17,216 nt of DNA from a virus: the IMG/VR virus record IMGVR_UViG_3300043172_001413, one strand, 5' to 3'. Positions 428-17,216 of this stretch are shown here, piece after piece. A program made the position numbers and the translations under genes. Position 1 is the first letter of the stretch. Each line of letters opens with the position of its first letter. The notes beneath the pieces were generated by a model. It made no database searches. It saw only the letters and a list, made by a program, of their open reading frames with translations, and was not told the origin of the DNA.

Positions 428-455
428 GACATACTCCTAAATGTTCAATTCTTTT

Positions 456-665: not shown

Positions 666-675
666 AAATGTCTCC

Positions 676-1601: not shown

Positions 1602-1643
1602 CAGCTCACTCTCTTTTCAAGTTCAAAAAGCTGATCTTCACAT

Positions 1644-2755: not shown

Positions 2756-2758
2756 AGT

Positions 2759-3157: not shown

Positions 3158-3167
3158 TTTATCCGCC
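3126..3167. repeat. Perfect 21-nt tandem duplication (ctgtctatcaatttatccgcc x2) covering the SD/start region of the JAB gene
   Basis: Direct repeat read in the sequence; on the minus strand it duplicates GGCGGATAAATTGATAGACAG, i.e. RBS-like GGCGG plus TTG start plus IDR codons. Confidence 0.7.
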
Positions 3168-3283
3168 TTGTTTCAGTAAAATGAGAATAACAGCTATGAA
3201 TAGTAAAATGATAAAGGGTAAAACCCTATTTTTAGAAAGAGTAAAAACAACAAAAAATAAGGTGTCTTTAAAAATATTTTTCT

Positions 3284-5715: not shown

Positions 5716-5747
5716 TCAATTTTCCTCCTTTTTGGTTAGAATGAATC

Positions 5748-6005
5748 TCAGGTACCGAAAGTCGCATTCGGTCTTACAGTAATATCACCTGACTTGTGGA
5801 ACTCAACAATCAGTTCGTTGAATTCATCTACCGGCTTGTCGAAATGATTTGCCAGGGCTCTTTTGATCTGGTCTCCGTTCAGATCTTTTGACTGAAGCTC
5901 AGCATCGTCTTCGATACCAAGACCAGCTCTGTCATCCACTGGGATAAGATCATCAAGATCAATATCCTCAGTTCTGCCATCATAAACGATGTGTACAGCG
6001 TCCAT
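5748..6005 (-). CDS. Small acidic protein with a beta-grasp-like N-terminus (candidate ubiquitin-like modifier), first gene of the operon; ends ...ATFGT
   Basis: MDAVHIVYDGRTEDIDL resembles the first beta-hairpin of ubiquitin (MQIFVKTLTGKTITLEV); AGGAGGAG SD; lies upstream of E2-like, JAB and E1 genes as in Ubl-E2-JAB-E1 operons; single C-terminal Gly followed by Thr. Confidence 0.45.
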   Translation of the reverse strand: MDAVHIVYDGRTEDIDLDDLIPVDDRAGLGIEDDAELQSKDLNGDQIKRALANHFDKPVDEFNELIVEFHKSGDITVRPNATFGT

Positions 6006-6043
6006 TATGACTCCTCCTGTTAAAGTAAAAAGTGTCCTCAGTT

Positions 6044-6074
6044 TATTATACCCATTTTCAACTGAGATTGTTCA
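6044..6074 (-). promoter_or_regulatory. Candidate sigma70-type promoter for the minus-strand operon (-35 TTGAAC, 19-nt spacer, -10 TATAAT)
   Basis: Minus-strand TATAAT at 6049..6044 and TTGAAC at 6074..6069; the spacer is 2 nt longer than optimal. Confidence 0.3.
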
Positions 6075-6194
6075 AGAAAATCACACTTTATTAATGATAC
6101 TGGTTTTTAGCTGTTAATTTAAACTAAAAAATGGTAATAATATAATTTTTTTCTGGGTCAAAGTAAAAAAAAATTAAAATAGTGAAAATAAGTG

Positions 6195-6223
6195 TTGACA
6201 GAACTTCTTTTTAGTGGTATATT
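6195..6223 (+). promoter_or_regulatory. Strong sigma70-type promoter: TTGACA, 17 nt, TG-n-TATATT (extended -10)
   Basis: TTGACA 6195..6200, spacer gaacttctttttagtgg, TATATT 6218..6223 with TG at 6215..6216; drives the plus-strand RNA cluster. Confidence 0.6.
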
Positions 6224-6258
6224 ATTCTTCGTAGAGTCTCTGCGCCCAAATTTATCGG

Positions 6259-6266
6259 GCGTACAT
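6259..6266 (+). promoter_or_regulatory. GCNTACAT motif copy A (gcgTACAT), 2 nt before tRNA-Val
   Basis: One of seven copies of (G)GCNTACAT-W, each immediately 5' of an RNA gene. Confidence 0.4.
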
Positions 6267-6268
6267 TT

Positions 6269-6343
6269 GAAGATATAGCTCAGTGGTAGAGCGATCATTT
6301 TACAGATGATAAGTCCCTGGCTCGAAACCAGGTTTCTTCACCA
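6269..6343 (+). tRNA. tRNA-Val (anticodon UAC), encoded CCA
   Basis: Cloverleaf folded by eye: acceptor GAAGATA/TTTCTTC (one T.T mismatch), D-arm GCTC-AGTGGTA-GAGC, anticodon stem ATCAT/ATGAT with loop TTTACAG, 5-nt variable loop, T-arm CCTGG-CTCGAAA-CCAGG (unusual C54), discriminator A, CCA. Confidence 0.75.
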
Positions 6344-6407
6344 AATCAGCACGATTAACTTGCGCAGGACTTTCTTTGAAATTATAGCAGAAAACCTAAC
6401 GGTAGAT

Positions 6408-6415
6408 GCTTACAT
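6408..6415 (+). promoter_or_regulatory. GCNTACAT motif copy B (gctTACAT)
   Basis: Motif copy preceding structured RNA B. Confidence 0.35.
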
Positions 6416-6524
6416 AACGTGAAGTCGAAAGACTTCCAGCCCCTCCACCTGCTCACAATCGGTAAGTGAGTTAGTGGTGGGGCTGGATTATCCCGGTTCG
6501 CCGGGAAGCACCTCAAACTTTTTT
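6416..6524 (+). ncRNA. Structured ncRNA B (~110 nt): GAAA-tetraloop hairpin, 12-bp GC-rich stem enclosing an inner hairpin, UUCG-tetraloop hairpin, then T6; boundaries approximate
   Basis: GAAGTC-GAAA-GACTTC (6421..6436); CCAGCCCCtCCAC/GTGGtGGGGCTGG (6436..6448 with 6474..6486) around CTCAC-AATCGGTAA-GTGAG; TCCCGG-TTCG-CCGGGA (6491..6506); T-run 6519..6524. Confidence 0.45.
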
Positions 6525-6567
6525 CTGCTTATTATAAATCGTAAATGGGCAACATCAGACATTGAGG

Positions 6568-6575
6568 GCTTACAT
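6568..6575 (+). promoter_or_regulatory. GCNTACAT motif copy C (gctTACAT)
   Basis: Motif copy preceding structured RNA C. Confidence 0.35.
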
Positions 6576-6671
6576 TAATTTTTAGGAATTAATCGTCCCC
6601 TGTAGAGTCAGGGGGCAAACCTCGGGGAAACCCGGGGAAAGCACTTAAGACTTGGTTGCTCATTTTTTTTT
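6576..6671 (+). ncRNA. Structured ncRNA C (~95 nt) ending in a T9 run: CCCCTG-TAGAGT-CAGGGG hairpin and a 7-bp GAAA-tetraloop hairpin; probable end of the first transcription unit
   Basis: Hairpins at 6597..6614 and 6620..6637; T9 at 6663..6671 preceded by only a weak AGCA/TGCT stem; boundaries approximate. Confidence 0.4.
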
Positions 6672-6676
6672 GGTCT

Positions 6677-6704
6677 TTGAAATTTTAATGTCACAACCTA
6701 ATTT
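6677..6704 (+). promoter_or_regulatory. Candidate promoter for tRNA-like D: -35 TTGAAA, 16 nt, -10 TAATTT; predicted start at the GCGTACAT motif
   Basis: TTGAAA 6677..6682; TAATTT 6699..6704; the -10 ends exactly 8 nt before TACAT, the same geometry as units E and F. Confidence 0.35.
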
Positions 6705-6709
6705 TTAAT

Positions 6710-6717
6710 GCGTACAT
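6710..6717 (+). promoter_or_regulatory. GCNTACAT motif copy D (gcgTACAT), abutting tRNA-like D
   Basis: The last T of TACAT is position 1 of the tRNA-like gene. Confidence 0.4.
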
Positions 6718-6790
6718 TATCGATAGCTCAGTGTAGAGCGCAAGAACGCTAATCTTGATGTCGTAGGCTCGAAACCTACTCGATGAACCA
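6717..6790 (+). tRNA. tRNA-like gene (74 nt with CCA) with an atypical anticodon loop ACGCUAA (C33; nominal anticodon GCU) and a short variable loop; identity and function uncertain
   Basis: Acceptor TTATCGA/TCGATGA (one G.U), D-arm GCTC-AGTGTA-GAGC, anticodon stem CAAGA/TCTTG, variable loop ATGTC, T-arm GTAGG-CTCGAAA-CCTAC (C54 again), discriminator A + CCA; a GCU anticodon without a long variable arm is not a normal tRNA-Ser. Confidence 0.6.
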
Positions 6791-6877
6791 AACAAAGCAT
6801 TTTCAACTTTTGTGACATTTATTATAAAATTTGTTCTTTGAAAAATGGGATCTGATATTTTTAATTGGCACATTTCC

Positions 6878-6896
6878 TAACTTTGGGAGCCTACAT
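6878..6896 (+). promoter_or_regulatory. -10-like TAACTT (6878..6883) plus GCNTACAT motif copy E (gccTACAT, 6889..6896)
   Basis: Same 8-nt gap between the -10-like hexamer and TACAT as in units D and F; no -35 at optimal spacing (TTGAAA lies 34 nt upstream). Confidence 0.3.
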
Positions 6897-7007
6897 TAGT
6901 TAATTTGGAGGTTCAATTCCTCCTCCCGGCACCACAAGTGCTTGATTTTCAAGTGCTTCTGATGCCGGGATGGCCAAATTGGTAAAGGCGACTGTCTTCA
7001 GAACAGT
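6897..7007 (+). ncRNA. Circularly permuted tRNA-like module: T-arm, acceptor 3' strand, ACCA, 29-nt linker hairpin, acceptor 5' strand, D-arm, complete anticodon arm with UCA
   Basis: GGAGG-TTCAATT-CCTCC (6907..6923), TCCCGGC-A-CCA (6924..6934), linker CAAGTGCTTGATTTTCAAGTGCTTCTGAT (imperfect inverted repeat), GCCGGGA (6964..6970, perfect complement of 6924..6930), TG, GCC-AAATTGGTAAA-GGC, G, ACTGT-CTTCAGA-ACAGT (6991..7007; U33, anticodon UCA, R37). Confidence 0.5.
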
Positions 7008-7067
7008 TTTAAAAAACTTGTTAACCTGCTCTTTTAACTTGAATGTGTCAATTTAAAATATCGGTCT

Positions 7068-7095
7068 TTGAAAAAAAAGGCATTTCACCTAATCT
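7068..7095 (+). promoter_or_regulatory. Candidate promoter for RNA F: -35 TTGAAA, 16 nt, -10 TAATCT
   Basis: TTGAAA 7068..7073; TAATCT 7090..7095; 8 nt upstream of TACAT (7104), matching the unit D geometry. Confidence 0.35.
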
Positions 7096-7100
7096 TTGGA

Positions 7101-7108
7101 GCCTACAT
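7101..7108 (+). promoter_or_regulatory. GCNTACAT motif copy F (gccTACAT)
   Basis: Motif copy preceding structured RNA F. Confidence 0.35.
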
Positions 7109-7227
7109 AAAAAATTCCGGTTCGACTCCGGGTTTCCCCGCCTGACAGACTTTAATAGGTCTACCAGGCGGGGAAACTAGCCGTGTGGATGGCATCAGAT
7201 AGTGAATCTGACAAAATAAATTTTTGT
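7109..7227 (+). ncRNA. Structured ncRNA F: T-arm-like hairpin (TCCGG-TTCGACT-CCGGG) followed by a perfect 13-bp hairpin and a 6-bp hairpin; 3' boundary uncertain
   Basis: 7116..7132 T-arm-like with canonical TTCGANT loop; GTTTCCCCGCCTG (7132..7144) / CAGGCGGGGAAAC (7165..7177) perfect inverted repeat with inner AGAC/GTCT; TCAGAT-AGTGA-ATCTGA 7195..7210. Confidence 0.3.
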
Positions 7228-7258
7228 TACTGCTCTTTTAACTTTGAAATGCTCTTTT

Positions 7259-7266
7259 AAATACAT
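7259..7266 (+). promoter_or_regulatory. Degenerate motif copy G (aaaTACAT)
   Basis: TACAT conserved but the upstream GC is replaced; precedes the last structured segment. Confidence 0.25.
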
Positions 7267-7392
7267 AGGATTGGGTGGTTACTCACCGAGTAATCTTTAT
7301 TTGGTTTGCCCAGCCCTCTCCTCAGAGTTACCTAGTTGGGCAATTAGCCGTAAGCCGGGAAGATTTTTCTTTAACTTCCCGGCTTATTTTTT
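7267..7392 (+). ncRNA. Structured RNA segment G (hairpins GGTTACTC-ACC-GAGTAATC and TTGCCCA...TGGGCAA) ending in the cluster terminator
   Basis: Inverted repeats read in the sequence; may be a 3' UTR-like tail of the F transcript rather than a separate RNA. Confidence 0.3.
7352..7392 (+). terminator. Rho-independent terminator: perfect 11-bp stem AAGCCGGGAAG/CTTCCCGGCTT, 12-nt loop, then ATTTTTT
   Basis: Inverted repeat 7352..7362 / 7375..7385 followed by T6 at 7387..7392; closes the RNA cluster 13 nt before the next CDS. Confidence 0.7.
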
Positions 7393-7404
7393 GTACCATT
7401 AAAT

Positions 7405-10050
7405 ATGAAATGTCCTATCTGTGGTAATTCCTATTTCTCTGATTTCTTGAAATGCCCCGCCTATAAAATCTGTCTCATCTGTAATTTATGCTGCCAAGAA
7501 ACTTTACCGGAAAAAGTATATGAAGGACTGGAAGAAAATGATGGGAAAGGTCCCGGTACAGGCCATGAAATGTCAAATGAAGAAAAATCTATTAATACAA
7601 ATCTCGCTAATTCCCTCTATCATATGTATCTTCCCCGGACTGTCCTGGATATCGGATCCAAATATCCTATTTTTCTCCATACTTTAAAAGACCGTGCAGA
7701 AGTACTGGGAATTGACGGTATCCCTGAAATTATTAAATATGGTGAGGAACTCGGTGTCCCGGTTATTAACACTGACTTTGAATCCATAGACATTACACCA
7801 TATAAGAATAAATTTGACCTGATAACCGTCATACATACCTTTGAGCATTTTTATAATCCATTTGAGACTCTAAAAAAGATTTTGGAGTGTCTGAGTTCTC
7901 GGGGAGTTCTCTATATGCGTATCCCGAATATGGACGTATCAGGCATTGACCGGGATTTTACTAAGCATCATTTAACGATCCACCCCTTTATTTATTCCAC
8001 GCAAGCTATGTATATGTTGAGTGAAAAACTGGGTTATGAGATATTCAGGATTGATGACCAGGGAGGGTACGGGCAGAGTGATTTTTTCTTCAGGAAAAGA
8101 AAGGATAAATTCACCCTTTCAGTATGTATGATTGTGAAAAATGAAGAAAAGAATATAACTGATTGTCTTGAGAGTATTAAAGACGTGGCAGATGAATTTG
8201 TGATCGTTGATACTGGATCTACGGATAGAACGAAAGAGGTGGTCTCAAAATACACCTCTAACATCTATGATTTCAAATGGATAGATGATTTTTCTGCTGC
8301 CCGGAATTTTTCTTTGAGTAAGGCTACCGGTGATTTTGTGCTCTGGCTCGATGCAGATGATATTGTAGAGAATCCAGAAGCTATTTTACCCTTGCTGAAG
8401 GAAAGTTTTGATGCCCATGATTTCAATATTATATATGGGAATGATAATTTCAGCCAGGCACGGTTGTTCCGAAATTTCAGAAATATCCGTTTTGCCGGCC
8501 GCGTGCATGAATACCCTGTGTTGGATGGTCTGTTTTTAGAGATTCAAACGGATTTACCCACACCACAACGGGTTATTTCTCATCAGCGGGAGACAAGAGT
8601 AAATGTGTATCATAAGACAGAGAAACACAGTACTGAGGACAGGTCAGAGAGAAACTACCGCATTTTAAAAAAAGAATTGGAAGAGGATCCAGATAATTCA
8701 CGGACTCTCTTTTATCTGGGTAACGTTTTGAAAGAATTAAAAAGTTATGATGAAGCTATTGAAACATACCGGAAATATCTGAAGGTTTCAACTTGGGTTG
8801 ATGAGAAATGGATGGCTCAAAAATATATAGGCTGTATACTTCTATGGCAGGGATATTATAAAGAAGCGATAGAGGAATTTAAAGGGGCTATTGAGATAGA
8901 TAATAGATGGGCAGAATCCTATTATTATATAGGGGAATGTCTTTTTTTATTAAAAGATTACGATGGATGTATTGATTGGATGTTGAAAGCTGTGGAGAAA
9001 AAGCCCCCTTTCTCACCCCTGTGGAAAGAAACATCTGTTTATCAGGATGCACCCTATCGTTATATTTTTGCTGTCTATGATGTAAAAGGAGATTACAAGA
9101 AAGCTATTCATTATTGTAAGAGAGCCTGCGAGAAAAAACCCGGGAATGAATGGCTTGAAGGCAGGTTATTACACTTTGAAAGTCTTCTTGGGGGCGATTT
9201 ACGCGTAATAGAGTGTTTCAGGCAGGGAGCACTGGGAGACTGTTTAATGACAACTGCAGCTCTGCGAGGTCTGAAAGAGAAAGATCCTGGATGTTTTATT
9301 CGATATGTAACGCATCCTCATAGTATGCAAATTCTTGAAGGTAATAAATATATCGATGAATTGGTTTCAGAATCAAAAGAAGAACATGCGCAGAAGATTT
9401 ACTTTTCCTATCCGGACAAGGACTCTCCGTTGGAGGATGAAGGGTATCCTGATAAACCTTTGAGCAGGCATTTGATAAAAATTTTCAATGAATGTGCTGG
9501 GTTACCTGATAATAGTATGGAAATGGAGTGTACTCTTTCTGAGAAAGAGGAAAATGTGGGTCGATCATTACGCCGTCAGTATAAGAAATATTTAACATTG
9601 CATGTTAAATCTGGATGGTCCGCTTATAAAGATTGGTATAATGACCGGTGGAGACTTGTTGTTGAAAAATTATTTCAAAGAGGTTATGTGACCGTACAAA
9701 TAGGTCACAAGGAGGATTTTTTATTAAGAAATACTGTTGATTTCCGGGGTCATACGATAAAAGAAGTTTTGTCTGCTATTAAATATGCTGATGTTCACAT
9801 GGGTATTGATAGTTTCACTAATCATGTTTCTGCGACGTTTTTTGCCCCTTCAGTGATTTTATTTGGTAGTACTTCACCTATAGGGTCAGGTTATGACCAG
9901 AACATAAATATTTACAAGGACTTGCCGTGTCAGCCCTGTTATCGGGAATATAAAAGTAAAGATCCGTGTCCATGTGGGAAGAAATGTATGAGTTTGATCA
10001 CGGTTGATGAGGTTCTGAAGAGCGTTATTAAACTTCTGGAAGAAAGATGA
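7405..10050 (+). CDS. 881-aa multidomain enzyme: N-terminal Cys-rich zinc ribbon, class I SAM methyltransferase, GT2 glycosyltransferase, TPR repeats, C-terminal GT9 (heptosyltransferase-like) glycosyltransferase
   Basis: CPICG...CPAYKICLICNLCC; VLDIGSK...FDLITVIHTFEHFYNP (methyltransferase motifs); LSVCMIVKNEE...VIVDTGSTD...WLDADD (GT2 DxD); TPR-like helices in the YLGNVLKELKSYDEAIETYRKYL region; GALGDCLMTT...HMGIDSFTNHVSATFFAPSVILFGSTSP (GT9 signature). Confidence 0.85.
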   Translation: MKCPICGNSYFSDFLKCPAYKICLICNLCCQETLPEKVYEGLEENDGKGPGTGHEMSNEEKSINTNLANSLYHMYLPRTVLDIGSKYPIFLHTLKDRAEVLGIDGIPEIIKYGEELGVPVINTDFESIDITPYKNKFDLITVIHTFEHFYNPFETLKKILECLSSRGVLYMRIPNMDVSGIDRDFTKHHLTIHPFIYSTQAMYMLSEKLGYEIFRIDDQGGYGQSDFFFRKRKDKFTLSVCMIVKNEEKNITDCLESIKDVADEFVIVDTGSTDRTKEVVSKYTSNIYDFKWIDDFSAARNFSLSKATGDFVLWLDADDIVENPEAILPLLKESFDAHDFNIIYGNDNFSQARLFRNFRNIRFAGRVHEYPVLDGLFLEIQTDLPTPQRVISHQRETRVNVYHKTEKHSTEDRSERNYRILKKELEEDPDNSRTLFYLGNVLKELKSYDEAIETYRKYLKVSTWVDEKWMAQKYIGCILLWQGYYKEAIEEFKGAIEIDNRWAESYYYIGECLFLLKDYDGCIDWMLKAVEKKPPFSPLWKETSVYQDAPYRYIFAVYDVKGDYKKAIHYCKRACEKKPGNEWLEGRLLHFESLLGGDLRVIECFRQGALGDCLMTTAALRGLKEKDPGCFIRYVTHPHSMQILEGNKYIDELVSESKEEHAQKIYFSYPDKDSPLEDEGYPDKPLSRHLIKIFNECAGLPDNSMEMECTLSEKEENVGRSLRRQYKKYLTLHVKSGWSAYKDWYNDRWRLVVEKLFQRGYVTVQIGHKEDFLLRNTVDFRGHTIKEVLSAIKYADVHMGIDSFTNHVSATFFAPSVILFGSTSPIGSGYDQNINIYKDLPCQPCYREYKSKDPCPCGKKCMSLITVDEVLKSVIKLLEER

Positions 10051-10055
10051 TAGGT

Positions 10056-10385
10056 TTATTCATAATACCGAAAGATAGGTTCAATTTTTTTTAGATATAA
10101 TTCACAAAATTTTTTCGTTTTTTCCGATTCTTCTTCAGTAGGTCCATCAAAAGTTTTGTCAATTTTTTTTGAGGATATTTCAAAAGTAATTGTGTAATGA
10201 TAACTTGATTGAAGATCTTCAGCTGAGAACTGTCCCAGACATTCGTATTTCCATTTTTTTGAGAAATACCCTTCCACTGTTTTTATTATTTTCTCACAAA
10301 TTTCATTTGCTTTTTCTTCATCCATAGCGATAACACTGATGTCAATAGTTTTTAATTCTTTTACTTCATGAATTGAGAATTTCAT
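10056..10385 (-). CDS. Hypothetical protein, 109 aa
   Basis: ORF with AGGAGAAAT SD-like sequence upstream; convergent with the glycosyltransferase gene; no family recognised. Confidence 0.45.
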   Translation of the reverse strand: MKFSIHEVKELKTIDISVIAMDEEKANEICEKIIKTVEGYFSKKWKYECLGQFSAEDLQSSYHYTITFEISSKKIDKTFDGPTEEESEKTKKFCELYLKKIEPIFRYYE

Positions 10386-10400
10386 TTATTTCTCCTTTTC

Positions 10401-11021
10401 TTAACTCTTATTTGCTACATAGGCTAAGCACGAATTCTTAGCTTCAATAATCTTAATAAAATCGTTTGCATTTCCACCTTTGTCCGGATGATATATTAAA
10501 GATAATTTTCTAAATGCTGTTTTAATACTATTTTCAGTAGCTTCAGATGTTAATCCCAACTTCTCGAAGGATTTAACTGGTGTAGGTATCGAAGCTTGTA
10601 TAAAAAAATTAGCAAAACGGTTAAACATATTATCAAAAGTACCAAAAGAACTAAAAGAACTAAAACTCTGCCACTCATAAAATCTTTGATTCTCTTCGCG
10701 CTGTTTATAATAAGCTGTTTCTTTCTTTTTAAGATAATCTCCAAACAATTCGTTTTTGACTTTAATAATTACAGTAGCATAAAAATATTTCCAAAGGCTT
10801 TCAGGTAAACCTTTTCCTTTAGCTTTGTTTGAAATACCATCGAATTTTTGCCTGATTTCCTTAATTACTATTTTAAAGCGATTATAATTAAAATTATTAG
10901 TTGATGCGAGGTATTCGATAACAGCCATAAAATCTGCGGTTAGATCGACTATGAAATTATTATGATTAAATTGCTCTTGAACGTCCAACTTATACTTTTT
11001 GATATATTCTTTTGGTTTCAT
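10401..11021 (-). CDS. J-domain (DnaJ-like) protein with a C-terminal J-domain, 206 aa
   Basis: LGLTSEATENSIKTAFRKLSLIYHPDKGG contains the diagnostic HPD tripeptide in J-domain helix II/III context; GAGGAG SD. Confidence 0.7.
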   Translation of the reverse strand: MKPKEYIKKYKLDVQEQFNHNNFIVDLTADFMAVIEYLASTNNFNYNRFKIVIKEIRQKFDGISNKAKGKGLPESLWKYFYATVIIKVKNELFGDYLKKKETAYYKQREENQRFYEWQSFSSFSSFGTFDNMFNRFANFFIQASIPTPVKSFEKLGLTSEATENSIKTAFRKLSLIYHPDKGGNANDFIKIIEAKNSCLAYVANKS

Positions 11022-11207
11022 ACTCCTCTTTCATTTTTCTTTCTTCCATTGATATTATACGTGATTTCGGATTGTATTATTCTTTTTTCTGAAAAATTTG
11101 TAATATTCTCTTAATACTTCATTATATCATAATTTCTATTCTAGTGGGATATATCCAGGGGTGTGATTAAAAGCGCACTAACCTCGGCAAAAAGCTAGGA
11201 GACCTTC

Positions 11208-14200
11208 ATGTCAAAGACCAAAAGAAAATGGATCTGTGGTGTTGGTGATTTACCTGATACCACTCAGAATTACAACGCTTTTCAAGCCTTACGTGCAGAA
11301 GACATTCCATACGATCCGACTCTAAGTATTAAAGATGCTATAGAATCTGGGCTGACCGGTGTTCAGGGGCCCACTGGAGCCACGGGTACTGGTATCCAGG
11401 GCGAGACAGGAGTCGCGGGTATTTATGGAGAAACGGGTGTACAGGGTCAAACTGGAATAGGAATTCAGGGAGAAACAGGTGTTGAAGGAATACAAGGTCA
11501 AACCGGAGCTTCGGGTGGTGGAGAAACAGGAATTCAGGGAGAAACAGGTGTTGAAGGAATACAAGGTCAAACCGGAGCTTCGGGTGGTGGAGAAACAGGG
11601 ATTCAGGGAGAAACAGGTGTTCAAGGAATTGCCGGACAAACCGGAGCTCTGGGGGGTGGAGACACAGGAGTCCAGGGCGAAACGGGTATCCAGGGAATTG
11701 CCGGACAAACTGGTGCGGGTATCCAGGGTCAGACGGGTGCTGGTATCCAGGGTCAAACAGGTATTCAAGGAGAGACTGGTGCTGGTACTCAGGGCGAAAC
11801 GGGTATCCAGGGAACGCAGGGTTCACAGGGCGAAACGGGTATTCAGGGCTATACAGGAGTCCAGGGAGAGACAGGAGTTCAGGGAACACAGGGAGAGACA
11901 GGAGTTCAGGGAACACAGGGCGAGACAGGAGTTCAGGGTGAGACCGGTACTGGTATCCAGGGAGAAACGGGTGTCGCTGGAGTAGCAGGAGAGACAGGAG
12001 TTCAGGGAGATCAGGGCGAGACAGGAGTAGCAGGAGTCGCAGGAGAGACGGGTGTCCAGGGAACACAGGGAGAGACAGGAGTACAGGGTCAGACGGGTGC
12101 TGGTATCCAGGGCGAGACAGGAGTTCAGGGAACACAGGGCGAGACAGGAGTTCAGGGTGAGACCGGTACTGGTATCCAGGGCGAAACGGGTGTCCAGGGA
12201 ACACAGGGCGAGACAGGAGTTCAGGGTGAGACCGGTACTGGTATTCAGGGCGAGACAGGAGTTCAGGGAGATCAGGGAGAGACAGGAGTACAGGGTGAGA
12301 TAGGTGAAACGGGTGTCCAAGGTGATATTGGTCCTCAAGGTCCAAGAGGAGACCAGGGGGAGACCGGAGTCCAGGGAATTCAAGGTATCCAAGGAACTAC
12401 AGGGGTCCAAGGTATCCAGGGTGTCACCGGGGTTCAGGGAGAAACAGGAATCCAGGGAACCCAGGGTAATCAAGGTGAAACAGGAGTTGAAGGTATACAG
12501 GGAGACACAGGTATAGCAGGTGTAGCTGGTGTCACGGGGACCCAAGGCTCACAGGGAGTAACAGGAGTTGAGGGTACACAGGGAGACACAGGTGCAGGTC
12601 TTCAAGGTGTTACGGGTATCCAAGGGATCCAAGGCCAGACAGGTGTACAGGGAGAGACCGGTATAGAGGGTGAAACTGGAATAGAGGGCTCTCAGTTTGT
12701 CGGTTTTATGTATAATGCTTTAACAAATAGTCAATCGGATACAGATCCAGGGACAGGGAAATTAAAATGGAGTACTGTTGGTCAGACAAATGCTGCTGAA
12801 TTATATGTAGATGATGAGGATAAAAACTCTATAGATTATAGTTCACTTTATATCACTTTAAAAAATAGTGATGTTATTCGTGTCCAGCGTCAGGAAAATC
12901 CCAAACAATTTCAAATTTTTAAAATAGATGCTGTTGTTGATAGAACAGGATGGTTTCGTTTTGAAGTTTCTTTTATTGTAAGTGGAGGTTCTGTTTTTAG
13001 TCTTAATGATAATCTTATTTTGATTTTTGAGATTTCTGGACCGCAGGGAGAGACAGGAGTAGCAGGAGAGACAGGAGTTCAGGGAGACACAGGTGTAGCA
13101 GGTGTAGCGGGGGAGACCGGAGTCCAGGGAGTTCAGGGTATCCAGGGTAATCAGGGCGAGACAGGAGTTCAGGGAGACACAGGAGCGGGAGTAGCCGGAG
13201 AGACAGGAGTTCAGGGAGACACAGGTATAGGTGTAGCGGGGGAGACCGGAGTCCAGGGAGTTCAGGGAGAGACAGGAGTAGCAGGAGAGACAGGAGTTCA
13301 GGGGACTCAGGGAGAGACAGGAGTACAGGGTCAGACGGGTGCTGGTATCCAGGGGGAGACCGGAGTTCAGGGAACACAAGGAGAGACTGGTTCTCAGGGT
13401 CAGACGGGTGCTGGTATCCAGGGCGAGACAGGAGTTCAGGGGACTCAGGGAGAGACTGGTTCTCAGGGTCAGACTGGTGCTGGTATCCAGGGCGAGACAG
13501 GAGTTCAGGGTACACAGGGAGAGACAGGTTCTCAGGGTCAGACTGGTGCTGGTATCCAGGGAGAGACAGGAGTTCAGGGTACACAGGGAGAGACAGGTTC
13601 TCAGGGTCAGACGGGTGCTGGTATCCAGGGAGAGACAGGAATTCAGGGTCAGACGGGTATTCAAGGAGTCACGGGAGAAACTGGAGTCGGTATCCAGGGA
13701 GAGACAGGAGTTCAGGGAACACAGGGAGAGACAGGAGTCCAGGGTCAGACTGGTGCTGGTATCCAGGGAGAAACAGGAATTCAGGGAACACAGGGAGTAA
13801 CAGGAGCTGGGATTCAAGGAGAGACAGGAGTTCAGGGAGCACAGGGCGATACAGGAGTTCAGGGAGCACAGGGCGAGACAGGAGTTCAGGGTCAGACGGG
13901 CGAGACAGGAGTTCAGGGCGAGACAGGAGTCGCGGGTGTAGCAGGAGAGACAGGAGTTGCGGGTATTCAGGGAGAGACCGGAAGTCAGGGTCAGACGGGT
14001 GTTCAGGGAGACACAGGTATAGCAGGTATAGCGGGGGAGACCGGAGTCCAGGGTAATCAGGGTATCCAGGGTAATCAGGGAGAGACAGGAGTTCAGGGTA
14101 CACAGGGAGAGACAGGTTCTCAGGGTCAGACGGGTGCTGGTATCCAGGGAGAGACAGGAATTCAGGGTCAGACGGGTATTCAAGGAGTCACGGGTATCCA

Positions 14201-14900
14201 GGGTGAGACAGGAGCGGGTGTAGCAGGAGAGACAGGAGTTCAAGGAGACACTGGTATAGGATCGTTTATTCAAATAGACCCTAATAATATAAATAGATAC
14301 GAAGTTGCAGACGGAGGTGGTGAAGAAGTATGGATTGTTTCAAGCTCAGCTACTTATTTATTAGTGCCCTGGACAAGAGCCAGTACAAGTTTAACAATTA
14401 CTCGAGCAGGACATGGCCATGTTACAGGAAATAGAATTATTGTCAGAAATTCTAATGTTGAATATCAGTCCACGCTTATAACATCATATAATGCAAATGA
14501 TTTTACAGTAACTACTGTAGATTCAGGAGCAACATCAGGCTCATCGGCGACCTATTTATTAGGTTTTTCTTTTAGTCATACCGGCATGCCTAAAACAGGT
14601 GGAACTTTAAGTGCTCCTATAGGAGATCATGCCGATGTGCAGCTTTTATCTATGAGGGTTCGTACTGGACCGAGAGCGGGTACAACTTATGACTTGGTAG
14701 TTCCGGCAAGTTCTCTTAATGGTGCAGGGGATAATACAAGTCTTGCGGATTGCTATATCCCTGATTTTAATGTTAGAACAGATTCTAATTCATTAGCTGC
14801 CATAGCAGCTACTATAGCCACAAATATCGGCGGTTCTTATACAACATTTAGATTTGGTAATTTAGGGTCGCTATCAAGATTTATTATACTCCAATTTTAA
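11208..14900 (+). CDS. Proline-free collagen-like (G-X-Y) fibre protein, 1230 aa: N-terminal head, collagen-like region 1 (~11340..12690), globular insert (~12691..13035), collagen-like region 2 (~13036..14265), C-terminal globular domain (~14266..14897); probable tail-fibre or surface-fibre protein
   Basis: AGGAG SD 6 nt before the ATG; hundreds of GETGVQG/GTQGETG/GAGIQG triplets with Thr/Gln at Y and no Pro; frequent G-X-G one-residue interruptions; non-repeat domains at both ends. Confidence 0.85.
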   Translation: MSKTKRKWICGVGDLPDTTQNYNAFQALRAEDIPYDPTLSIKDAIESGLTGVQGPTGATGTGIQGETGVAGIYGETGVQGQTGIGIQGETGVEGIQGQTGASGGGETGIQGETGVEGIQGQTGASGGGETGIQGETGVQGIAGQTGALGGGDTGVQGETGIQGIAGQTGAGIQGQTGAGIQGQTGIQGETGAGTQGETGIQGTQGSQGETGIQGYTGVQGETGVQGTQGETGVQGTQGETGVQGETGTGIQGETGVAGVAGETGVQGDQGETGVAGVAGETGVQGTQGETGVQGQTGAGIQGETGVQGTQGETGVQGETGTGIQGETGVQGTQGETGVQGETGTGIQGETGVQGDQGETGVQGEIGETGVQGDIGPQGPRGDQGETGVQGIQGIQGTTGVQGIQGVTGVQGETGIQGTQGNQGETGVEGIQGDTGIAGVAGVTGTQGSQGVTGVEGTQGDTGAGLQGVTGIQGIQGQTGVQGETGIEGETGIEGSQFVGFMYNALTNSQSDTDPGTGKLKWSTVGQTNAAELYVDDEDKNSIDYSSLYITLKNSDVIRVQRQENPKQFQIFKIDAVVDRTGWFRFEVSFIVSGGSVFSLNDNLILIFEISGPQGETGVAGETGVQGDTGVAGVAGETGVQGVQGIQGNQGETGVQGDTGAGVAGETGVQGDTGIGVAGETGVQGVQGETGVAGETGVQGTQGETGVQGQTGAGIQGETGVQGTQGETGSQGQTGAGIQGETGVQGTQGETGSQGQTGAGIQGETGVQGTQGETGSQGQTGAGIQGETGVQGTQGETGSQGQTGAGIQGETGIQGQTGIQGVTGETGVGIQGETGVQGTQGETGVQGQTGAGIQGETGIQGTQGVTGAGIQGETGVQGAQGDTGVQGAQGETGVQGQTGETGVQGETGVAGVAGETGVAGIQGETGSQGQTGVQGDTGIAGIAGETGVQGNQGIQGNQGETGVQGTQGETGSQGQTGAGIQGETGIQGQTGIQGVTGIQGETGAGVAGETGVQGDTGIGSFIQIDPNNINRYEVADGGGEEVWIVSSSATYLLVPWTRASTSLTITRAGHGHVTGNRIIVRNSNVEYQSTLITSYNANDFTVTTVDSGATSGSSATYLLGFSFSHTGMPKTGGTLSAPIGDHADVQLLSMRVRTGPRAGTTYDLVVPASSLNGAGDNTSLADCYIPDFNVRTDSNSLAAIAATIATNIGGSYTTFRFGNLGSLSRFIILQF
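13338..13682 (+). repeat. Five near-identical tandem copies of a 69-nt (23-aa GAGIQGETGVQGTQGETGSQGQT) unit inside fibre gene 1
   Basis: GGTGCTGGTATCCAGG recurs at 13338, 13407, 13476, 13545 and 13614 (period 69) with only synonymous or near-synonymous differences. Confidence 0.8.
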
Positions 14901-14915
14901 TGGTTTGGAAATAAA

Positions 14916-17216
14916 ATGGCTAGAATAATTAACGGTTCATTATATGTAGAACTGTATAATGCCACTGCGACTCCAGGTGAATATACTTTTTCTGATGCTA
15001 CGTTTAATAATCAAGCCGACGCTCTTGGCGAGGGTTCATTAAGTATTGATTCTGGCTATGTAATGTTTATTTCTTCTATAGATTCTATTTCTTTAGTTCC
15101 TATTCCTGGTGTTGCACATAGATATCAAATCACTTCTATTTCGGCTGCTGATGGTATTCATTTATCTGCTACTATTTTGTGGGATGAAGATGGTAGTGAA
15201 GTTGATAAACCTCAGAATCAAACATTTGCTCTTTTGACAGAGGATACTACAAATCTTAGTTATGGTTTACCTATATCAAGTGAAGTTTATGTTAATCTTC
15301 CTGGGGGTATAATAGAAGCCGCTTATAATGCAGATATAAGACACATTACAGATAAACTTAGTGGAATCACGGGTATCCAGGGAGAAACGGGTGTCCAGGG
15401 AGTTACTGGTGCCGGAACTTTTGGTACAACGGGTATCCAGGGAGAAACGGGTGTCCAGGGAGTTACTGGTGCCGGAACTTTTGGTACAACGGGAGTCCAG
15501 GGAGAAACGGGTGTCCAGGGCATTCAGGGCGGGACGGGTATTCAGGGGACCCAGGGTGATACCGGAGCTGGAATTCAGGGAGAGACAGGAGTTCAGGGAA
15601 CTCAGGGAGAGACAGGAGCTGGTATTCAGGGTGAAACAGGCGTAGCAGGTGTGGCCGGTGAAACAGGCATAGCTGGAGTTCAAGGAACTACTGGGGCAGG
15701 TATCCAGGGAGAGACAGGAGTAGCAGGTGTCCAGGGTCAGACGGGTGCTGGTATCCAGGGCGAGACCGGAGTTCAAGGAATTACTGGTGCTGGAACTTTT
15801 GGTACAACCGGTGTTCAGGGAGAAACGGGTGTTCAGGGGATACAGGGTCAGACGGGTGCTGGTATCCAGGGAGAGACAGGAGTAGCAGGTATCCAGGGTC
15901 AGACGGGTGCTGGTATCCAAGGAGAGACAGGAGTTCAAGGAGTTACTGGTGCTGGAACTTTTGGTACAACCGGTGTTCAGGGAGAAACGGGTGTTCAGGG
16001 GATACAGGGTCAGACGGGTGCTGGGATACAGGGAGAGACAGGAGTCCAGGGACAGACTGGTGCTGACGGTTCAACCGGCGAGCAGGGAGAGACGGGTGTC
16101 CAGGGAACACAGGGAGAGACAGGGATACAGGGTCAGACGGGTGCTGGGATACAGGGAGAGACAGGAGTCCAGGGAATTACCGGTGTTGGAACTTTCGGTA
16201 CAACAGGAGTTCAAGGAGAGACCGGTGTTCAAGGCATTCAGGGTCAGACGGGTGCTGGTATCCAGGGAGAGACAGGAGTTGCGGGTATTCAGGGAACTAC
16301 TGGTGCTGGTACTCAGGGAGAAACCGGAATCCAAGGTGAAACTGGTGCCATGGGTGGCGGTGATACAGGTATCCAGGGAGAAACGGGTGTCGCTGGAGTA
16401 GCAGGAGAGACAGGAATTCAAGGTACCCAGGGTGACCAGGGAGAGACAGGAGTACAGGGAACTCAAGGTGATCAGGGAGAGACCGGTGTTCAGGGAGTCC
16501 AGGGTCAGACGGGTGCGGGTATTCAAGGAGAAACAGGAGTCCAGGGTATCCAGGGAGAGACAGGTGTAGCAGGTGTAGCAGGTGAAACAGGTATCCAAGG
16601 TATTCAGGGAGTCACTGGCGTGCAAGGCATCCAGGGTGTGACTGGTGTTCAAGGTACTCAGGGTGACACGGGTGTACAGGGGATTCAGGGAGACACTGGG
16701 GTTCAGGGGACACAGGGCGACACAGGAGCCATGGGAACCCAAGGTGAAACGGGTGTGCAGGGTGTCCAGGGCGAGACAGGAGTGCAAGGAGATACTGGGG
16801 TCCAGGGAGATATTGGGGTCCAGGGAGAAACAGGAGTCCAGGGTGAAACGGGTGTCCAAGGGGAGCATGGTGAGGTTGCTGGAGCTCTTCTATATCTTCA
16901 TAACGAAGCTTCAGATATAGGTGGATATAAAGATCTGCGTGTAACAGTCCACGAAGGAGCCGAGGTCAAAGCAGATGCGACTGTGATCGGTGGCGGAGGT
17001 AATGTCGAAATTGCCCCTTTTGTTACACTCTCTACTTATCCCGGGGAAGGGATCTGGCCATATGGAGAATGGCTTTTAAAAACATATGCGAGCGTGAGCT
17101 CAGATGCCGGTGATTCGCGGGTAATAGCAACTGCTTACCGAAGGGATACGGACGGCACTGAATCATTTTTGTTTGATTCCACGACTACTGAGATCAGTGG
17201 GTTCTCTCCCGTTTTG
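14916..17216 (+). CDS. Second collagen-like fibre protein (partial, >767 aa; continues past window end): 148-aa N-terminal domain, long G-X-Y region with recurring GAGTFGTTG interruptions, start of a C-terminal globular domain from ~16870
   Basis: ATG 14916 lies 15 nt after the stop of fibre gene 1; frame open to the window end; not in the supplied ORF track because no stop occurs in the window. Confidence 0.8.
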   Translation, partial: MARIINGSLYVELYNATATPGEYTFSDATFNNQADALGEGSLSIDSGYVMFISSIDSISLVPIPGVAHRYQITSISAADGIHLSATILWDEDGSEVDKPQNQTFALLTEDTTNLSYGLPISSEVYVNLPGGIIEAAYNADIRHITDKLSGITGIQGETGVQGVTGAGTFGTTGIQGETGVQGVTGAGTFGTTGVQGETGVQGIQGGTGIQGTQGDTGAGIQGETGVQGTQGETGAGIQGETGVAGVAGETGIAGVQGTTGAGIQGETGVAGVQGQTGAGIQGETGVQGITGAGTFGTTGVQGETGVQGIQGQTGAGIQGETGVAGIQGQTGAGIQGETGVQGVTGAGTFGTTGVQGETGVQGIQGQTGAGIQGETGVQGQTGADGSTGEQGETGVQGTQGETGIQGQTGAGIQGETGVQGITGVGTFGTTGVQGETGVQGIQGQTGAGIQGETGVAGIQGTTGAGTQGETGIQGETGAMGGGDTGIQGETGVAGVAGETGIQGTQGDQGETGVQGTQGDQGETGVQGVQGQTGAGIQGETGVQGIQGETGVAGVAGETGIQGIQGVTGVQGIQGVTGVQGTQGDTGVQGIQGDTGVQGTQGDTGAMGTQGETGVQGVQGETGVQGDTGVQGDIGVQGETGVQGETGVQGEHGEVAGALLYLHNEASDIGGYKDLRVTVHEGAEVKADATVIGGGGNVEIAPFVTLSTYPGEGIWPYGEWLLKTYASVSSDAGDSRVIATAYRRDTDGTESFLFDSTTTEISGFSPVL
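15369..15530 (+). repeat. Tandem 60-nt repeat (two perfect copies plus one diverged copy) encoding TGIQGETGVQGVTGAGTFGT, inside fibre gene 2
   Basis: 15369..15428 and 15429..15488 are identical; the GGTGCTGGAACTTTTGGTACAAC (GAGTFGTT) element recurs again near 15787, 15946 and 16188. Confidence 0.8.

What the first reader, a model, noticed from the sequence alone, without database searches (positions are those of the whole stretch)
11208..17216. Two tandem giant proline-free collagen-like fibre genes with regular G-X-G interruptions and near-identical internal tandem repeats
Both proteins consist of hundreds of G-X-Y triplets with Thr, Gln, Glu, Val and Ile at X/Y and essentially no Pro. They carry recurrent single-residue deletions (GAG, GTG, GGG, and in gene 2 a conserved GAGTFGTTG cassette). 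Gene 1 has a ~115-aa globular insert splitting the helix, and both have globular N- and C-terminal domains typical of trimerising fibre heads and receptor-binding tips. At DNA level there are five copies of a 69-nt unit and 2.5 copies of a 60-nt unit at about 100% identity, with other long near-repeats within and between the genes. These are ideal substrates for slippage or recombination that would change fibre length or register, giving host-range or antigenic variation.
Basis: seen in the sequence. Interest (0 to 1): 0.6.

Follow-up and report, generated by a model that had tools for sequence, protein, structure and literature searches.

The report
Proline-free collagen-like phage fibre gene pair
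Two adjacent genes of an uncultivated large bacteriophage encode very long, almost proline-free collagen-like fibre proteins; this is a known kind of phage protein, their repeats look stable rather than hypervariable, and the two proteins are probably joined through a conserved pair of end domains.

Summary
Gene 1 (11208-14900, 1230 aa) and gene 2 (14916 to the window end, at least 767 aa) are collagen-like (Pfam Collagen E 5e-100 and 1e-55). Proline is nearly absent (4 of 861 and 0 of 507 collagen residues). There are 40 Gly-X-Gly interruptions, most often 23 residues apart.

Some details were overstated. The 69-nt units are 88-100% identical, not about 100%. Gene 2's "C-terminal" domain is an internal insert cut by the window end.

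Relatives sit on IMG/VR viral contigs of 55-279 kb and other metagenome contigs up to 314 kb, so this looks like a large phage. In 14 of 14 junctions examined, a gene ending in the gene-1 C-domain is followed within about 10-55 nt by a gene starting with the gene-2 N-domain, whatever lies between. I read the two domains as a conserved joint linking two fibre segments (inferred).

The slippage and antigenic-variation idea is not supported. Near-identical relatives from different samples show no indels across 5-8 kb of these genes. Repeat units differ almost only at synonymous sites.

Sugar-transferase genes cluster nearby, so glycosylated fibres are possible.

Verdict: a new member of a known kind, of moderate interest. 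An unrelated, more surprising feature lies at 6005-7405: circularly permuted tRNA-like genes.

The parts
11208..14900 (+). Gene 1, a 1230-aa collagen-like fibre protein. A Shine-Dalgarno motif (AGGAG) lies 7 nt upstream and the stop codon is TAA.
11208..11348 (+). Gene 1 N-terminal 47-aa conserved module (MSKTKRKW...IPYD...S.KDAI). It is a candidate virion-attachment anchor.
   Evidence: The same motif starts P0001, P0006, P0008, P0010, P0012-14, P0016, P0019 and relatives in L011, L024 and L030. There is no Pfam or NCBIfam match.
11349..12695 (+). Collagen-like region 1 (about 450 aa, roughly 129 nm if triple-helical). It holds 69-nt arrays at 11454-11660 and 12045-12251.
12696..13037 (+). 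114-aa globular insert. It belongs to a large unnamed family of roughly 105-aa domains that often occur 2-8 times per protein.
   Evidence: 1382 representative clusters match at E <= 1e-3. No Pfam model exists. The family co-occurs with DUF2793 and collagen. There is a weak match to phrog_35140.
13038..14267 (+). Collagen-like region 2 (about 410 aa, roughly 117 nm). The 69-nt array spans 13293-13775, with its core at 13362-13637. A 119-nt exact repeat lies at 13557-13675 and 14076-14194.
14268..14897 (+). Gene 1 C-terminal all-beta domain (210 aa) with an invariant HxH motif.
14916..17216 (+). Gene 2, a collagen-like fibre protein cut by the window end (767 aa visible). Complete relatives are 751-2828 aa.
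14916..15362 (+). Gene 2 N-terminal domain (149 aa): a small beta-barrel followed by a helix that leads into the collagen region.
15363..16883 (+). Gene 2 collagen-like region (507 aa, roughly 145 nm, no proline). It holds 60-nt units at 15363-15482 and 162-nt units at 15690-16013.
16884..17216 (+). Gene 2 non-collagen module, truncated by the window end. It is an internal insert, not the C-terminus.
   Evidence: tblastn matches internal parts of the L004 1348-aa and L011 2246-aa proteins. By eye it also resembles the N-terminal part of P0005.
7405..10050 (+). 881-aa fusion of methyltransferase, GT2, TPR and GT9 domains. It is a candidate fibre-glycosylating enzyme (inferred, not shown).
   Evidence: Pfam domains are. 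The best NCBIfam match of the GT2-TPR part is the SunS peptide S-glycosyltransferase family (E 6e-20, below cutoff). Sugar genes flank the fibre genes in L004, L009 and L020.

Best explanation
PROPOSAL
The two genes encode two successive segments of a very long, flexible, homotrimeric collagen-like fibre on the virion of an uncultivated large (probably jumbo) bacteriophage.

GENE 1, FROM N- TO C-TERMINUS
- A conserved 47-aa N-terminal anchor.
- About 129 nm of proline-free triple helix.
- A 114-aa bead domain.
- About 117 nm more triple helix.
- A conserved all-beta C-terminal knob.

GENE 2
- It starts with a conserved beta-barrel-plus-helix domain and continues with at least 145 nm of triple helix and further modules beyond the window.

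HOW THE TWO CONNECT
- I propose that the gene-1 C-knob nucleates trimerisation. Collagen helices are known to fold from the C-terminal end.
- I also propose that the knob is the socket onto which the gene-2 N-domain docks. Gene 2 would then extend or branch from gene 1 and carry the variable distal, receptor-binding end.
- This resembles how gp38 sits on the gp37 tip in phages T2 and S16, and how segments join in the T4 long tail fibre.

OTHER INFERENCES
- The Gly-X-Gly interruptions, often 23 residues apart, should make the rod flexible.
- The tandem 69-, 60- and 162-nt units record past growth by duplication. They are now maintained by purifying selection.
- Threonine at about half of the Y positions may be glycosylated by the neighbouring multi-domain glycosyltransferase. 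That would stabilise a helix lacking both proline and salt bridges.

SHOWN VERSUS INFERRED
- Shown: the collagen sequence pattern, the domain homologies, the viral context of relatives, the invariable gene-1-C to gene-2-N adjacency, and the absence of indels between close relatives.
- Inferred: trimer formation, docking, glycosylation, and whether the fibre sits on the tail or the head.
For: COLLAGEN IDENTITY AND COMPOSITION

PHAGE ORIGIN
- Relatives are IMG/VR viral contigs of 55-279 kb, and other metagenome contigs reach 314 kb.
- Neighbouring genes hit PHROG families: helicase, GroEL and a virion structural protein.
- Most genes have Shine-Dalgarno motifs.
- The gene-1 C-domain matches an uncultured Caudovirales phage protein at E 5e-19.
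- Mtd_N fused to the gene-1 C-domain occurs in P0234 and P0238.
- P0002 combines the gene-2 N-domain, coiled-coil and tail-fibre-like repeats, and the gene-1 C-domain.

THE JOINT
- In 14 of 14 junctions, a gene ending in the gene-1 C-domain is followed within about 10-55 nt by a gene starting with the gene-2 N-domain.
- The junctions are in the window, L004, L009, L011, L020, L024, L028, L030, L029, L033, L006 (two) and L031 (two).
- The adjacency holds whether the shafts are collagen, non-collagen or absent.
- The sizes involved range from 217 to 1611 aa and from 229 to 2828 aa.
- L006 has a chain of three such genes.
- Both domains give confident compact models.
- The gene-1 C-domain has an invariant HxH motif. 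HxH motifs bind metal ions on the trimer axis of T4 gp37 and gp12 (my own knowledge).

REPEAT STABILITY

GLYCOSYLATION LEAD
Against: - No particle, proteome or multimer model links these proteins to a virion or to each other.
- The adjacency could be inherited gene order rather than a physical contact.
- The window itself shows no hallmark structural gene next to the pair. Its upstream neighbours are DnaJ, a glycosyltransferase and tRNAs.
- A triple helix with no proline, almost no Lys or Arg (0-0.1%) and about 10% acidic residues lacks the known stabilising features, so its folding is unproven.
- Stand-alone gene-1 C-domain proteins of 217 aa (P0211) have no obvious anchor. This fits an adaptor or assembly-factor role as well as a knob.
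- The stability test used only 2-3 assemblies per lineage, possibly from related samples.
- Short-read assemblies of this very locus break inside the repeats.
Confidence: 0.6

Rival explanations
1. The two proteins are independent fibres. Each attaches to the virion through its own N-terminal domain. The gene-1 C-domain is a receptor-binding or lectin tip, and the constant adjacency is only conserved gene order.
For: - N-terminal anchor plus C-terminal binding domain is the standard tail-fibre design.
- P0002 (gene-2 N-domain ... gene-1 C-domain) and the Mtd_N fusions place the gene-1 C-domain at the distal end.
- Fold hits include the endosialidase beta-barrel and tailspikes.
Against: - The gene-1 C-domain is among the most conserved parts of the family (55-75% identity across lineages whose shafts and N-termini differ). 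That is unusual for a receptor-binding tip.
- The adjacency holds in 14 of 14 junctions, including two paralogous pairs within single genomes and proteins with no shaft.
Confidence: 0.3
2. The near-identical repeats would be an active slippage or recombination device that changes fibre length or register often, giving host-range or antigenic variation.
For: - Exact repeats of 48-119 nt exist within and between the genes.
- Collagen length differs enormously between distant relatives.
- Short-read assemblies break in the arrays, so population variation cannot be excluded.
Against: - No indels were found between close relatives from different samples. L020, L021 and L022 share 6.8 kb with 0-1 mismatches. 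L011 and L010 share 8.26 kb with 9 substitutions and 0 gaps. L006-L008 and L004-L005 also show none. The window and L003 match across arrays A and B.
- Differences between repeat units are almost all synonymous, so the units are old and under purifying selection.
Confidence: 0.1
3. The Gly-X-Y regions do not form a collagen triple helix. They would be disordered, or adopt another repetitive fold, and the proteins would not be rod-like fibres.
For: - Proline, Lys and Arg are nearly absent, so the usual stabilisers are missing.
- About 40 register-breaking interruptions are present.
Against: - Glycine keeps a strict three-residue period over hundreds of triplets and this is conserved across the family.
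- Thr and Gln at the Y position are the typical bacterial collagen pattern (PMC8968730).
- Prophage collagen-like fibre proteins were shown experimentally to form trimeric triple helices (PMC3368898).
Confidence: 0.08
4. These are not virion proteins. They would be a host-surface or spore-like coat collagen (BclA-like), encoded by a bacterium or made by the phage to remodel the host surface.
For: - The Thr-rich Gly-X-Thr pattern and nearby glycosyltransferases recall BclA.
- One homologous pair sits on a contig binned into an archaeal metagenome-assembled genome.
Against: - No signal peptide or cell-wall anchor was noticed in the translations, though this was not formally tested.
- The C-domain is not a C1q or TNF-like fold in the fold searches.
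- All long contigs carrying relatives look viral.
- The archaeal-genome contig is only 7 kb and carries just the fibre pair.
Confidence: 0.04

Closest known systems
Prophage collagen-like side-tail-fibre proteins of E. coli (EPclA-D; Ghosh et al. 2012, PMC3368898)
   Same: - They are phage-encoded Gly-X-Y domains flanked by globular modules.
- They have a C-terminal trimerisation domain and mosaic domain shuffling.
- They carry a Gly-x-x-Gly-Gly type interruption. The window has GASGGG, and relatives have GAFGGPPG.
   Different: - EPcl collagen has proline at about half of the X positions and many Lys and Arg residues. Here proline is 0-0.5% and Lys plus Arg 0-0.1%.
- The longest EPcl collagen domain is 322 aa, against two domains of about 410-450 aa in gene 1 and over 2500 collagen residues in a relative.
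- No known phage-fibre domain family is found here: Pfam reports only Collagen for the full proteins and nothing for the separate non-collagen domains at E <= 0.01.
Bacillus exosporium protein BclA
   Same: - The collagen is Thr-rich (Gly-X-Thr).
- A C-terminal domain nucleates the trimer.
- Repeat number sets filament length.
- Threonines are O-glycosylated by enzymes encoded nearby (and my own knowledge).
   Different: - BclA repeats are mostly Gly-Pro-Thr.
- Its C-domain is a C1q/TNF-like jelly roll (my own knowledge), which the fold searches did not recover here.
- BclA is a bacterial spore protein, not a viral one.
- BclA repeat number is polymorphic between strains, whereas none was seen here.
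T2/S16 gp37-gp38 adhesin attachment and the segmented T4 long tail fibre (gp34-gp37)
   Same: - Adjacent genes are involved.
- The C-terminal tip of one trimeric fibre protein binds the N-terminal attachment domain of the product of the next gene.
- The downstream protein carries the variable receptor-binding end (my own knowledge; the analogy rests).
   Different: - There is no sequence or fold relationship.
- The shafts here are collagen rather than beta-structured.
- The contact is inferred, not shown.
Glycosylated collagen-like fibrils of giant viruses (Mimivirus) and glycosylated mycobacteriophage virions
   Same: A virus encodes both collagen-like or structural proteins and its own glycosylation enzymes.
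   Different: - Mimivirus collagen is proline- and lysine-containing and is hydroxylated.
- The host here is prokaryotic, given the Shine-Dalgarno motifs.
- Glycosylation of these fibres is only a hypothesis.

Membership tests
Collagen triple-helix repeat proteins (Pfam PF01391) | Long uninterrupted runs of Gly at every third residue | tested here: met
   There are 269 and 156 Gly-X-Y triplets. Pfam E-values are 4.7e-100 and 1.4e-55.
Collagen triple-helix repeat proteins (Pfam PF01391) | Formation of a trimeric triple helix | not testable with these tools
   No multimer prediction or biophysics was available. Proline, Lys and Arg are nearly absent.
Phage tail or virion fibre proteins | Encoded in phage genomes, with homologous modules in known phage fibre proteins | tested here: met
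   - Relatives lie on IMG/VR contigs.
- A BFVD Caudovirales homologue matches at E 5e-19.
- Mtd_N fusions exist.
- PHROG tail-fibre families are hit, though mostly through the collagen part.
Phage tail or virion fibre proteins | Physical presence in the virion | not testable with these tools
   There is no isolate. No match was found in 50,697 deposited phage genomes.
EPcl / lambda Stf-type collagen-like fibres | PfN, Pf2 and PfC or phage-tail-fibre-repeat domains flanking the collagen | tested here: not met
   Pfam reports only Collagen for the full proteins. The five non-collagen segments have no Pfam match at E <= 0.01 and no convincing PHROG match apart from the insert's weak phrog_35140 hit. 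The four segments checked against NCBIfam (gene-1 N-anchor, insert and C-domain, gene-2 N-domain) have no match.
BclA-like exosporium collagens | C-terminal C1q/TNF-like jelly-roll trimerisation domain | tested here: not met
   The best fold matches of the AF2 model are an endosialidase and generic beta-barrels. No C1q or TNF-like hit appears in the lists.
Endosialidase/T5-type fibres with a C-terminal intramolecular chaperone (Peptidase_S74) | Peptidase_S74 chaperone domain at the C-terminus | tested here: not met
   There is no Pfam hit. The model is all-beta.
Contingency (hypervariable repeat) loci | Repeat copy number differs between closely related genomes | tested here: not met
   Five sets of near-identical assemblies show zero indels over 5.1-8.3 kb. 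Differences between units are synonymous. Samples were small, and array C of the window itself is not spanned by any other assembly.
Protein-glycosylation partner (SunS-type peptide glycosyltransferases) | Score above the family cutoff for TIGR04195 | tested here: not met
   The score is 71.5 bits against a cutoff of 350. This is resemblance only, and the substrate is unknown.

The most novel reading that the evidence does not exclude
The gene-1 C-domain and gene-2 N-domain would be a previously undescribed plug-and-socket pair. Large uncultivated phages would use it to chain fibre segments of any kind end to end or as branches; L006 has three genes in series. The result would be glycosylated, proline-free and salt-bridge-free collagen fibres several hundred nanometres long. 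That chemistry would show a third way of stabilising a collagen helix.
Probability: 0.35. Interest if true: 0.6.

Novelty: new member of a known kind. Interest (0 to 1): 0.4.

Why it matters
Collagen-like fibres are common but poorly understood adhesion organelles of phages.

This family shows how far the design can be pushed. Collagen runs reach 2500 residues with essentially no proline, lysine or arginine. That is relevant to designers of recombinant collagens and to models of collagen folding that rely on salt-bridge clamps (PMC11923368).

If the conserved joint is real, it offers a simple rule for predicting which fibre proteins assemble together in uncultivated jumbo phages. It would also be a modular connector for engineering phage host range.

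The negative result on repeat instability matters too. Perfect-looking tandem repeats in fibre genes should not be assumed to be phase-variable.

Tried and rejected
SEARCHES THAT FOUND NOTHING
- Megablast of window 1-11200, and tblastn of the gene-1 C-domain and gene-2 N-domain, against 50,697 phage genomes gave no match.
- An exact-protein lookup of gene 1, and of the 102-aa ORF, found nothing on record.
- A contig of 0.2-1 Mb carries the glycosyltransferase and DnaJ proteins, but it was never shown.
- Exact DNA patterns from the gene-1 C-domain (viral contigs) and from the end of gene 2 (metagenome contigs) gave no hits. The rest of gene 2 could therefore not be recovered.
- A single-protein scan of viral contigs with the gene-1 C-domain found nothing. 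The alignment-based scan worked.
- A viral-contig scan for the tRNA-unit trailer motif returned only chance hits in coding regions.
- A genome-collection scan for the permuted unit's 3' half found nothing, which argues against a host tRNA or att-site origin.

IDEAS CONSIDERED AND REJECTED
- A eukaryotic giant virus as the source. Shine-Dalgarno motifs and PHROG hits argue against it.
- Horizontal transfer as the cause of the 57% GC in the fibre genes. The composition simply reflects Gly, Glu, Gln and Thr codons.
- The many long ORFs on other frames and on the opposite strand of 11300-16900 as real genes. They are by-products of the repeats.
- The 524-aa VWA protein as a Ro60 homologue. Sequence searches give no support.

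FOLD SEARCHES
- Fold searches for both end domains gave only weak, generic matches.
Full report
**1. What is in the sequence**

Two ORFs lie on the + strand in the same frame, 15 nt apart. Gene 1 spans 11208-14900 (1230 aa) and has an AGGAG ribosome-binding site. Gene 2 starts at 14916 and runs off the window end with 767 aa visible.

Both are overwhelmingly collagen-like: Pfam PF01391 gives E 4.7e-100 and 1.4e-55.

Gene 1 has five parts:
- an N-terminal module (aa 1-47);
- collagen region 1 (aa 48-496);
- a 114-aa non-collagen insert;
- collagen region 2 (aa 611-1020);
- a 210-aa C-terminal domain.

Gene 2 has three visible parts:
- a 149-aa N-domain;
- 507 collagen residues;
- a non-collagen module cut by the window end.

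Proline is nearly absent, with 4 in 861 collagen residues of gene 1 and none in 507 of gene 2. X positions are mostly V, E and I; Y positions are mostly Q and T. There are 23 and 17 one-residue-deletion (Gly-X-Gly) interruptions plus GGG sites, and the most common spacing is 23 residues. GAGTFGTTG occurs 4 times plus one variant.

The high GC and GC skew of 11.2-17.2 kb simply reflect this codon content. The many long ORFs in other frames and on the opposite strand are by-products of the repeats.

**2. Repeats**

- The 69-nt array in collagen region 2 has four core units (13362-13637). These are identical in protein and 93-100% identical in DNA. Flanking units are 88-90% identical.
- Two shorter 69-nt arrays lie at 11454-11660 and 12045-12251.
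- The 60-nt unit has two copies at 95% plus a diverged part-copy. A 162-nt unit is duplicated at 95%.
- Long exact repeats do exist: 119 nt (13557 vs 14076, 519 nt apart and in frame), 82 nt within gene 2, and 48 nt between the genes.

**3. Source**

The window is 100% identical to a 46-kb Logan contig that ends in the first 69-nt array. It also matches, with one mismatch, a 5-kb JGI contig that ends inside the main array. Short-read assemblies therefore break at these repeats.

Several lines point to a prokaryotic virus:
- Most genes have Shine-Dalgarno motifs.
- Neighbouring genes hit PHROG families, including a helicase; relatives carry GroEL and a virion structural protein.
- Relatives of both fibre genes lie on IMG/VR viral contigs of 55-279 kb and on other metagenome contigs up to 314 kb.

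Nothing similar exists in 50,697 deposited phage genomes. I conclude it is an uncultivated large phage, probably of jumbo size. The host is unknown. One related 7-kb contig is binned in an Altiarchaeales genome, which I treat as weak evidence.

**4. End domains**

None of the non-collagen parts has a convincing Pfam or PHROG match, and the four checked against NCBIfam have none. The only exception is the insert's weak hit to phrog_35140.

*Gene-1 C-domain.*
- It has about 70 metagenomic homologues at 34-80% identity.
- Nearly all sit at the C-terminus of proteins whose N-terminal parts differ. Those parts include collagen of various lengths, coiled coil, tail-fibre-like repeats, Mtd_N (the N-domain of the Bordetella phage tropism determinant), or almost nothing (217 aa).
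- Its AF2 model (pLDDT 81) is all-beta.
- An HxH motif is invariant.

*Gene-2 N-domain.* Its model (pLDDT 91) is a small beta-barrel plus a helix leading into the collagen. Fold matches are only generic.

*Gene-1 insert.* It belongs to a very large unnamed family, with 1382 representative clusters. The domain is about 105 aa and often occurs 2-8 times per protein.

*Gene 2's last visible module.* It matches internal modules of complete relatives of 1348 and 2246 aa, so it is not a C-terminus.

**5. The conserved junction**

In every locus where both sides are visible, a gene ending in the gene-1 C-domain is followed within about 10-55 nt by a gene starting with the gene-2 N-domain. The 14 junctions are in the window, L004, L009, L011, L020, L024, L028, L030, L029, L033, L006 (two) and L031 (two).

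The rule holds whether the upstream protein is 217 or 1611 aa and the downstream one 229 or 2828 aa, and whether the shafts are collagen or not. In L006 the middle protein (P0002) carries both domains, making a three-gene chain. Searches seeded from either domain recovered the partner, and I found no counter-example.

I read this as a functional joint. The C-knob of one trimer would be the docking site for the N-domain of the next. This is analogous to gp38 on the gp37 tip in T2 and S16, and to the segmented T4 long tail fibre (my own knowledge). This step is inference.

The rival is that each protein is an independent fibre and the adjacency is inherited gene order. Two observations argue against it: the unusually high conservation of a supposed tip domain, and the presence of paralogous pairs within single genomes.

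**6. Collagen chemistry**

The family as a whole is proline-poor:
- proline is 0-5% in most members;
- one relative has 0% over 884 collagen residues;
- a 2828-aa relative has 0.8% over 2519 residues.

Across most of the family, Thr is about 13-19% of collagen residues (roughly half of the Y positions), Gln 7-22% and aliphatic residues 14-26%. Lys plus Arg is 0-2.6% throughout.

Thr and Gln at the Y position are the usual bacterial pattern (PMC8968730). The combination of no proline and no basic residues removes both known stabilisers: imino acids, and the KGE/KGD salt-bridge clamps (PMC11923368).

At 0.286 nm per residue, the three visible helices would be about 129, 117 and 145 nm long. Gly-X-Gly breaks are known to bend or loosen triple helices, for example in mannan-binding lectin (PMC9898670). 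At about 23-residue spacing they predict a flexible, hair-like fibre.

**7. Are the repeats a variation device?**

Near-identical genomes from different samples have no indels in these genes:
- L020, L021 and L022: 6.8 kb, 0-1 mismatches.
- L011 vs L010: 8.26 kb, 9 substitutions, 0 gaps.
- L006, L007 and L008: 5.4-5.5 kb compared, 0-1 mismatches, no gaps.
- L004 vs L005: 5.1 kb, identical.
- Window vs L003, which spans arrays A and B.

Within the window, repeat units differ almost only at third codon positions. The core array has 6 of 6 synonymous differences (P = 3e-4), and other arrays have 8 of 10 and 6 of 8. The units are therefore old duplications kept by purifying selection.

Length does change enormously over longer distances, so the repeats matter for evolution. 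There is no sign of rapid, contingency-type switching.

Caveats apply. There were few genomes per lineage. No other assembly spans the main array of this phage.

**8. Glycosylation lead**

An 881-aa fusion of methyltransferase, GT2, TPR and GT9 domains lies 1.2 kb upstream on the same strand. The best NCBIfam match of its GT2-TPR part is the SunS peptide S-glycosyltransferase family (E 6e-20, far below the cutoff).

Sugar genes also flank the fibre genes in relatives:
- Sugar-nucleotide epimerases, methyltransferases and GT2, GT8 or GT9 enzymes in L004 and L009.
- A homologue of the 881-aa protein in L020.

BclA offers a precedent, and glycosyl-threonine is known to stabilise collagen helices (cites this mechanism). 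Thr-glycosylated fibres are therefore plausible, at about 0.35, but untested.

**9. Comparison and verdict**

Collagen-like phage fibre proteins are well known. Examples are the PHROG tail-fibre families, EPclA-D (PMC3368898), and the collagen-like repeats in the host-specificity proteins of Streptococcus thermophilus phages.

This pair is a new, extreme member. It has new end domains, a proline-free and base-free helix, and a conserved two-gene junction that I have not seen described. It is not an EPcl, BclA or Peptidase_S74-type fibre, because the defining domains were tested and not found.

Interest is moderate at 0.4. It would be higher if the joint and the glycosylation are confirmed.

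**10. Side observation outside the finding**

The ORF-free gap 6005-7405 is a small-RNA cluster. It holds two ordinary tRNAs, two structured small RNAs, and two units in which the tRNA parts are circularly permuted.

The order in each permuted unit is:
- T arm;
- 3' acceptor strand (plus CCA in unit A);
- a 30-33-nt hairpin linker;
- the perfectly complementary 5' acceptor strand;
- D arm;
- anticodon arm.

Supporting evidence:
- Rejoining the halves gives ARAGORN tRNAs with anticodons UCA and GUG for almost every junction tried.
- The same cluster, in the same place between the same genes, occurs in a related phage contig (proteins 73-84% identical). It has compensatory changes in the T and acceptor stems and a third permuted unit.
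- Rfam gives only sub-threshold hits, to permuted (two-piece) tmRNA models, which share this topology.
- I found no report of permuted tRNA genes in phages.

This may be the most novel thing in the window and deserves its own follow-up.

Noticed in passing
window 6880-7045 and 7090-7260 (+ strand); L098/L127 (reverse complement): Two circularly permuted tRNA-like genes lie here. The order in each is:
- a leader (GAGCCTACAT);
- the T arm;
- the 3' acceptor strand (with CCA in unit A);
- a hairpin linker;
- the complementary 5' acceptor strand;
- the D arm and anticodon arm (anticodon loops read UCA and GUG);
- a trailer (TGCTCT).

Rejoined halves are called as tRNAs by ARAGORN. A related phage contig has the same units with compensatory stem changes, plus a third unit. 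The only Rfam hits are sub-threshold matches to permuted tmRNA models. They could be two-piece or permuted tRNAs opened in the variable arm. I found no phage precedent in the paper library.
   Followed up: partly
window 6005-7405: The whole ORF-free gap is a conserved small-RNA cluster:
- tRNA-Val(TAC) at 6269-6343;
- a second tRNA at 6717-6787, found by Rfam only;
- two structured small RNAs at about 6390-6520 and 6575-6690.

Each unit is preceded by a G-C-N-TACAT motif and an upstream CTTTGAAA motif. A hairpin followed by a T-run at about 7352-7395 looks like a terminator. The cluster is syntenic in L098/L127 at about 75% nucleotide identity.
   Followed up: partly
window 2108-6005 (- strand): This looks like an operon with the following genes:
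- an 85-aa protein;
- a 524-aa protein with a weak C-terminal VWA domain;
- a 286-aa protein of unknown function;
- a 42-aa ORF;
- a JAB deubiquitinase-like protein (132 aa);
- a short ThiF/E1-like protein (215 aa).

PADLOC matches only the E1 and JAB parts of CBASS-type E1-E2 and JAB models. It may be a phage-encoded ubiquitin-like conjugation or deconjugation module.
   Followed up: partly
window 7405-10050 (+): An unusual 881-aa fusion protein combines a SAM methyltransferase, GT2, TPR repeats and a GT9 (heptosyltransferase-like) domain. Its GT2-TPR part most resembles SunS-type peptide glycosyltransferases. It is 78% identical in the related phage L127 and 30% identical in L020.
   Followed up: partly
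window 12696-13037 (gene 1 insert): The insert belongs to a very large family of roughly 105-aa domains with no Pfam, PHROG or NCBIfam name. The family has 1382 representative clusters, up to 8 copies per protein, and proteins up to 3202 aa. The core motif is Y.FD..T.DADPG.GK.R.NN....ATE.Y.DD.
   Followed up: partly
window 11459-11490 and 13640; L001 and L003 ends: Public short-read assemblies of this phage end exactly inside the 69-nt arrays. L030, probably a long-read assembly, has frameshifts throughout its collagen genes. Gene callers then report off-frame fragments. Collagen fibre genes are therefore systematically under-represented or broken in protein databases.
   Followed up: yes
window 10401-11021 (-): A 206-aa protein has a C-terminal DnaJ (J) domain. 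A recently described lineage of large aquatic phages ('moraphages', PMC12619734) is noted for DnaJ and DnaK genes and several core glycosyltransferases. Whether this window belongs to that lineage was not tested.
   Followed up: no
L004 5914-8106: In a related 239-kb phage contig, a sugar epimerase next to the fibre genes is interrupted by an intein with a LAGLIDADG endonuclease. Malectin-domain and RCC1-repeat proteins follow the fibre genes.
   Followed up: no
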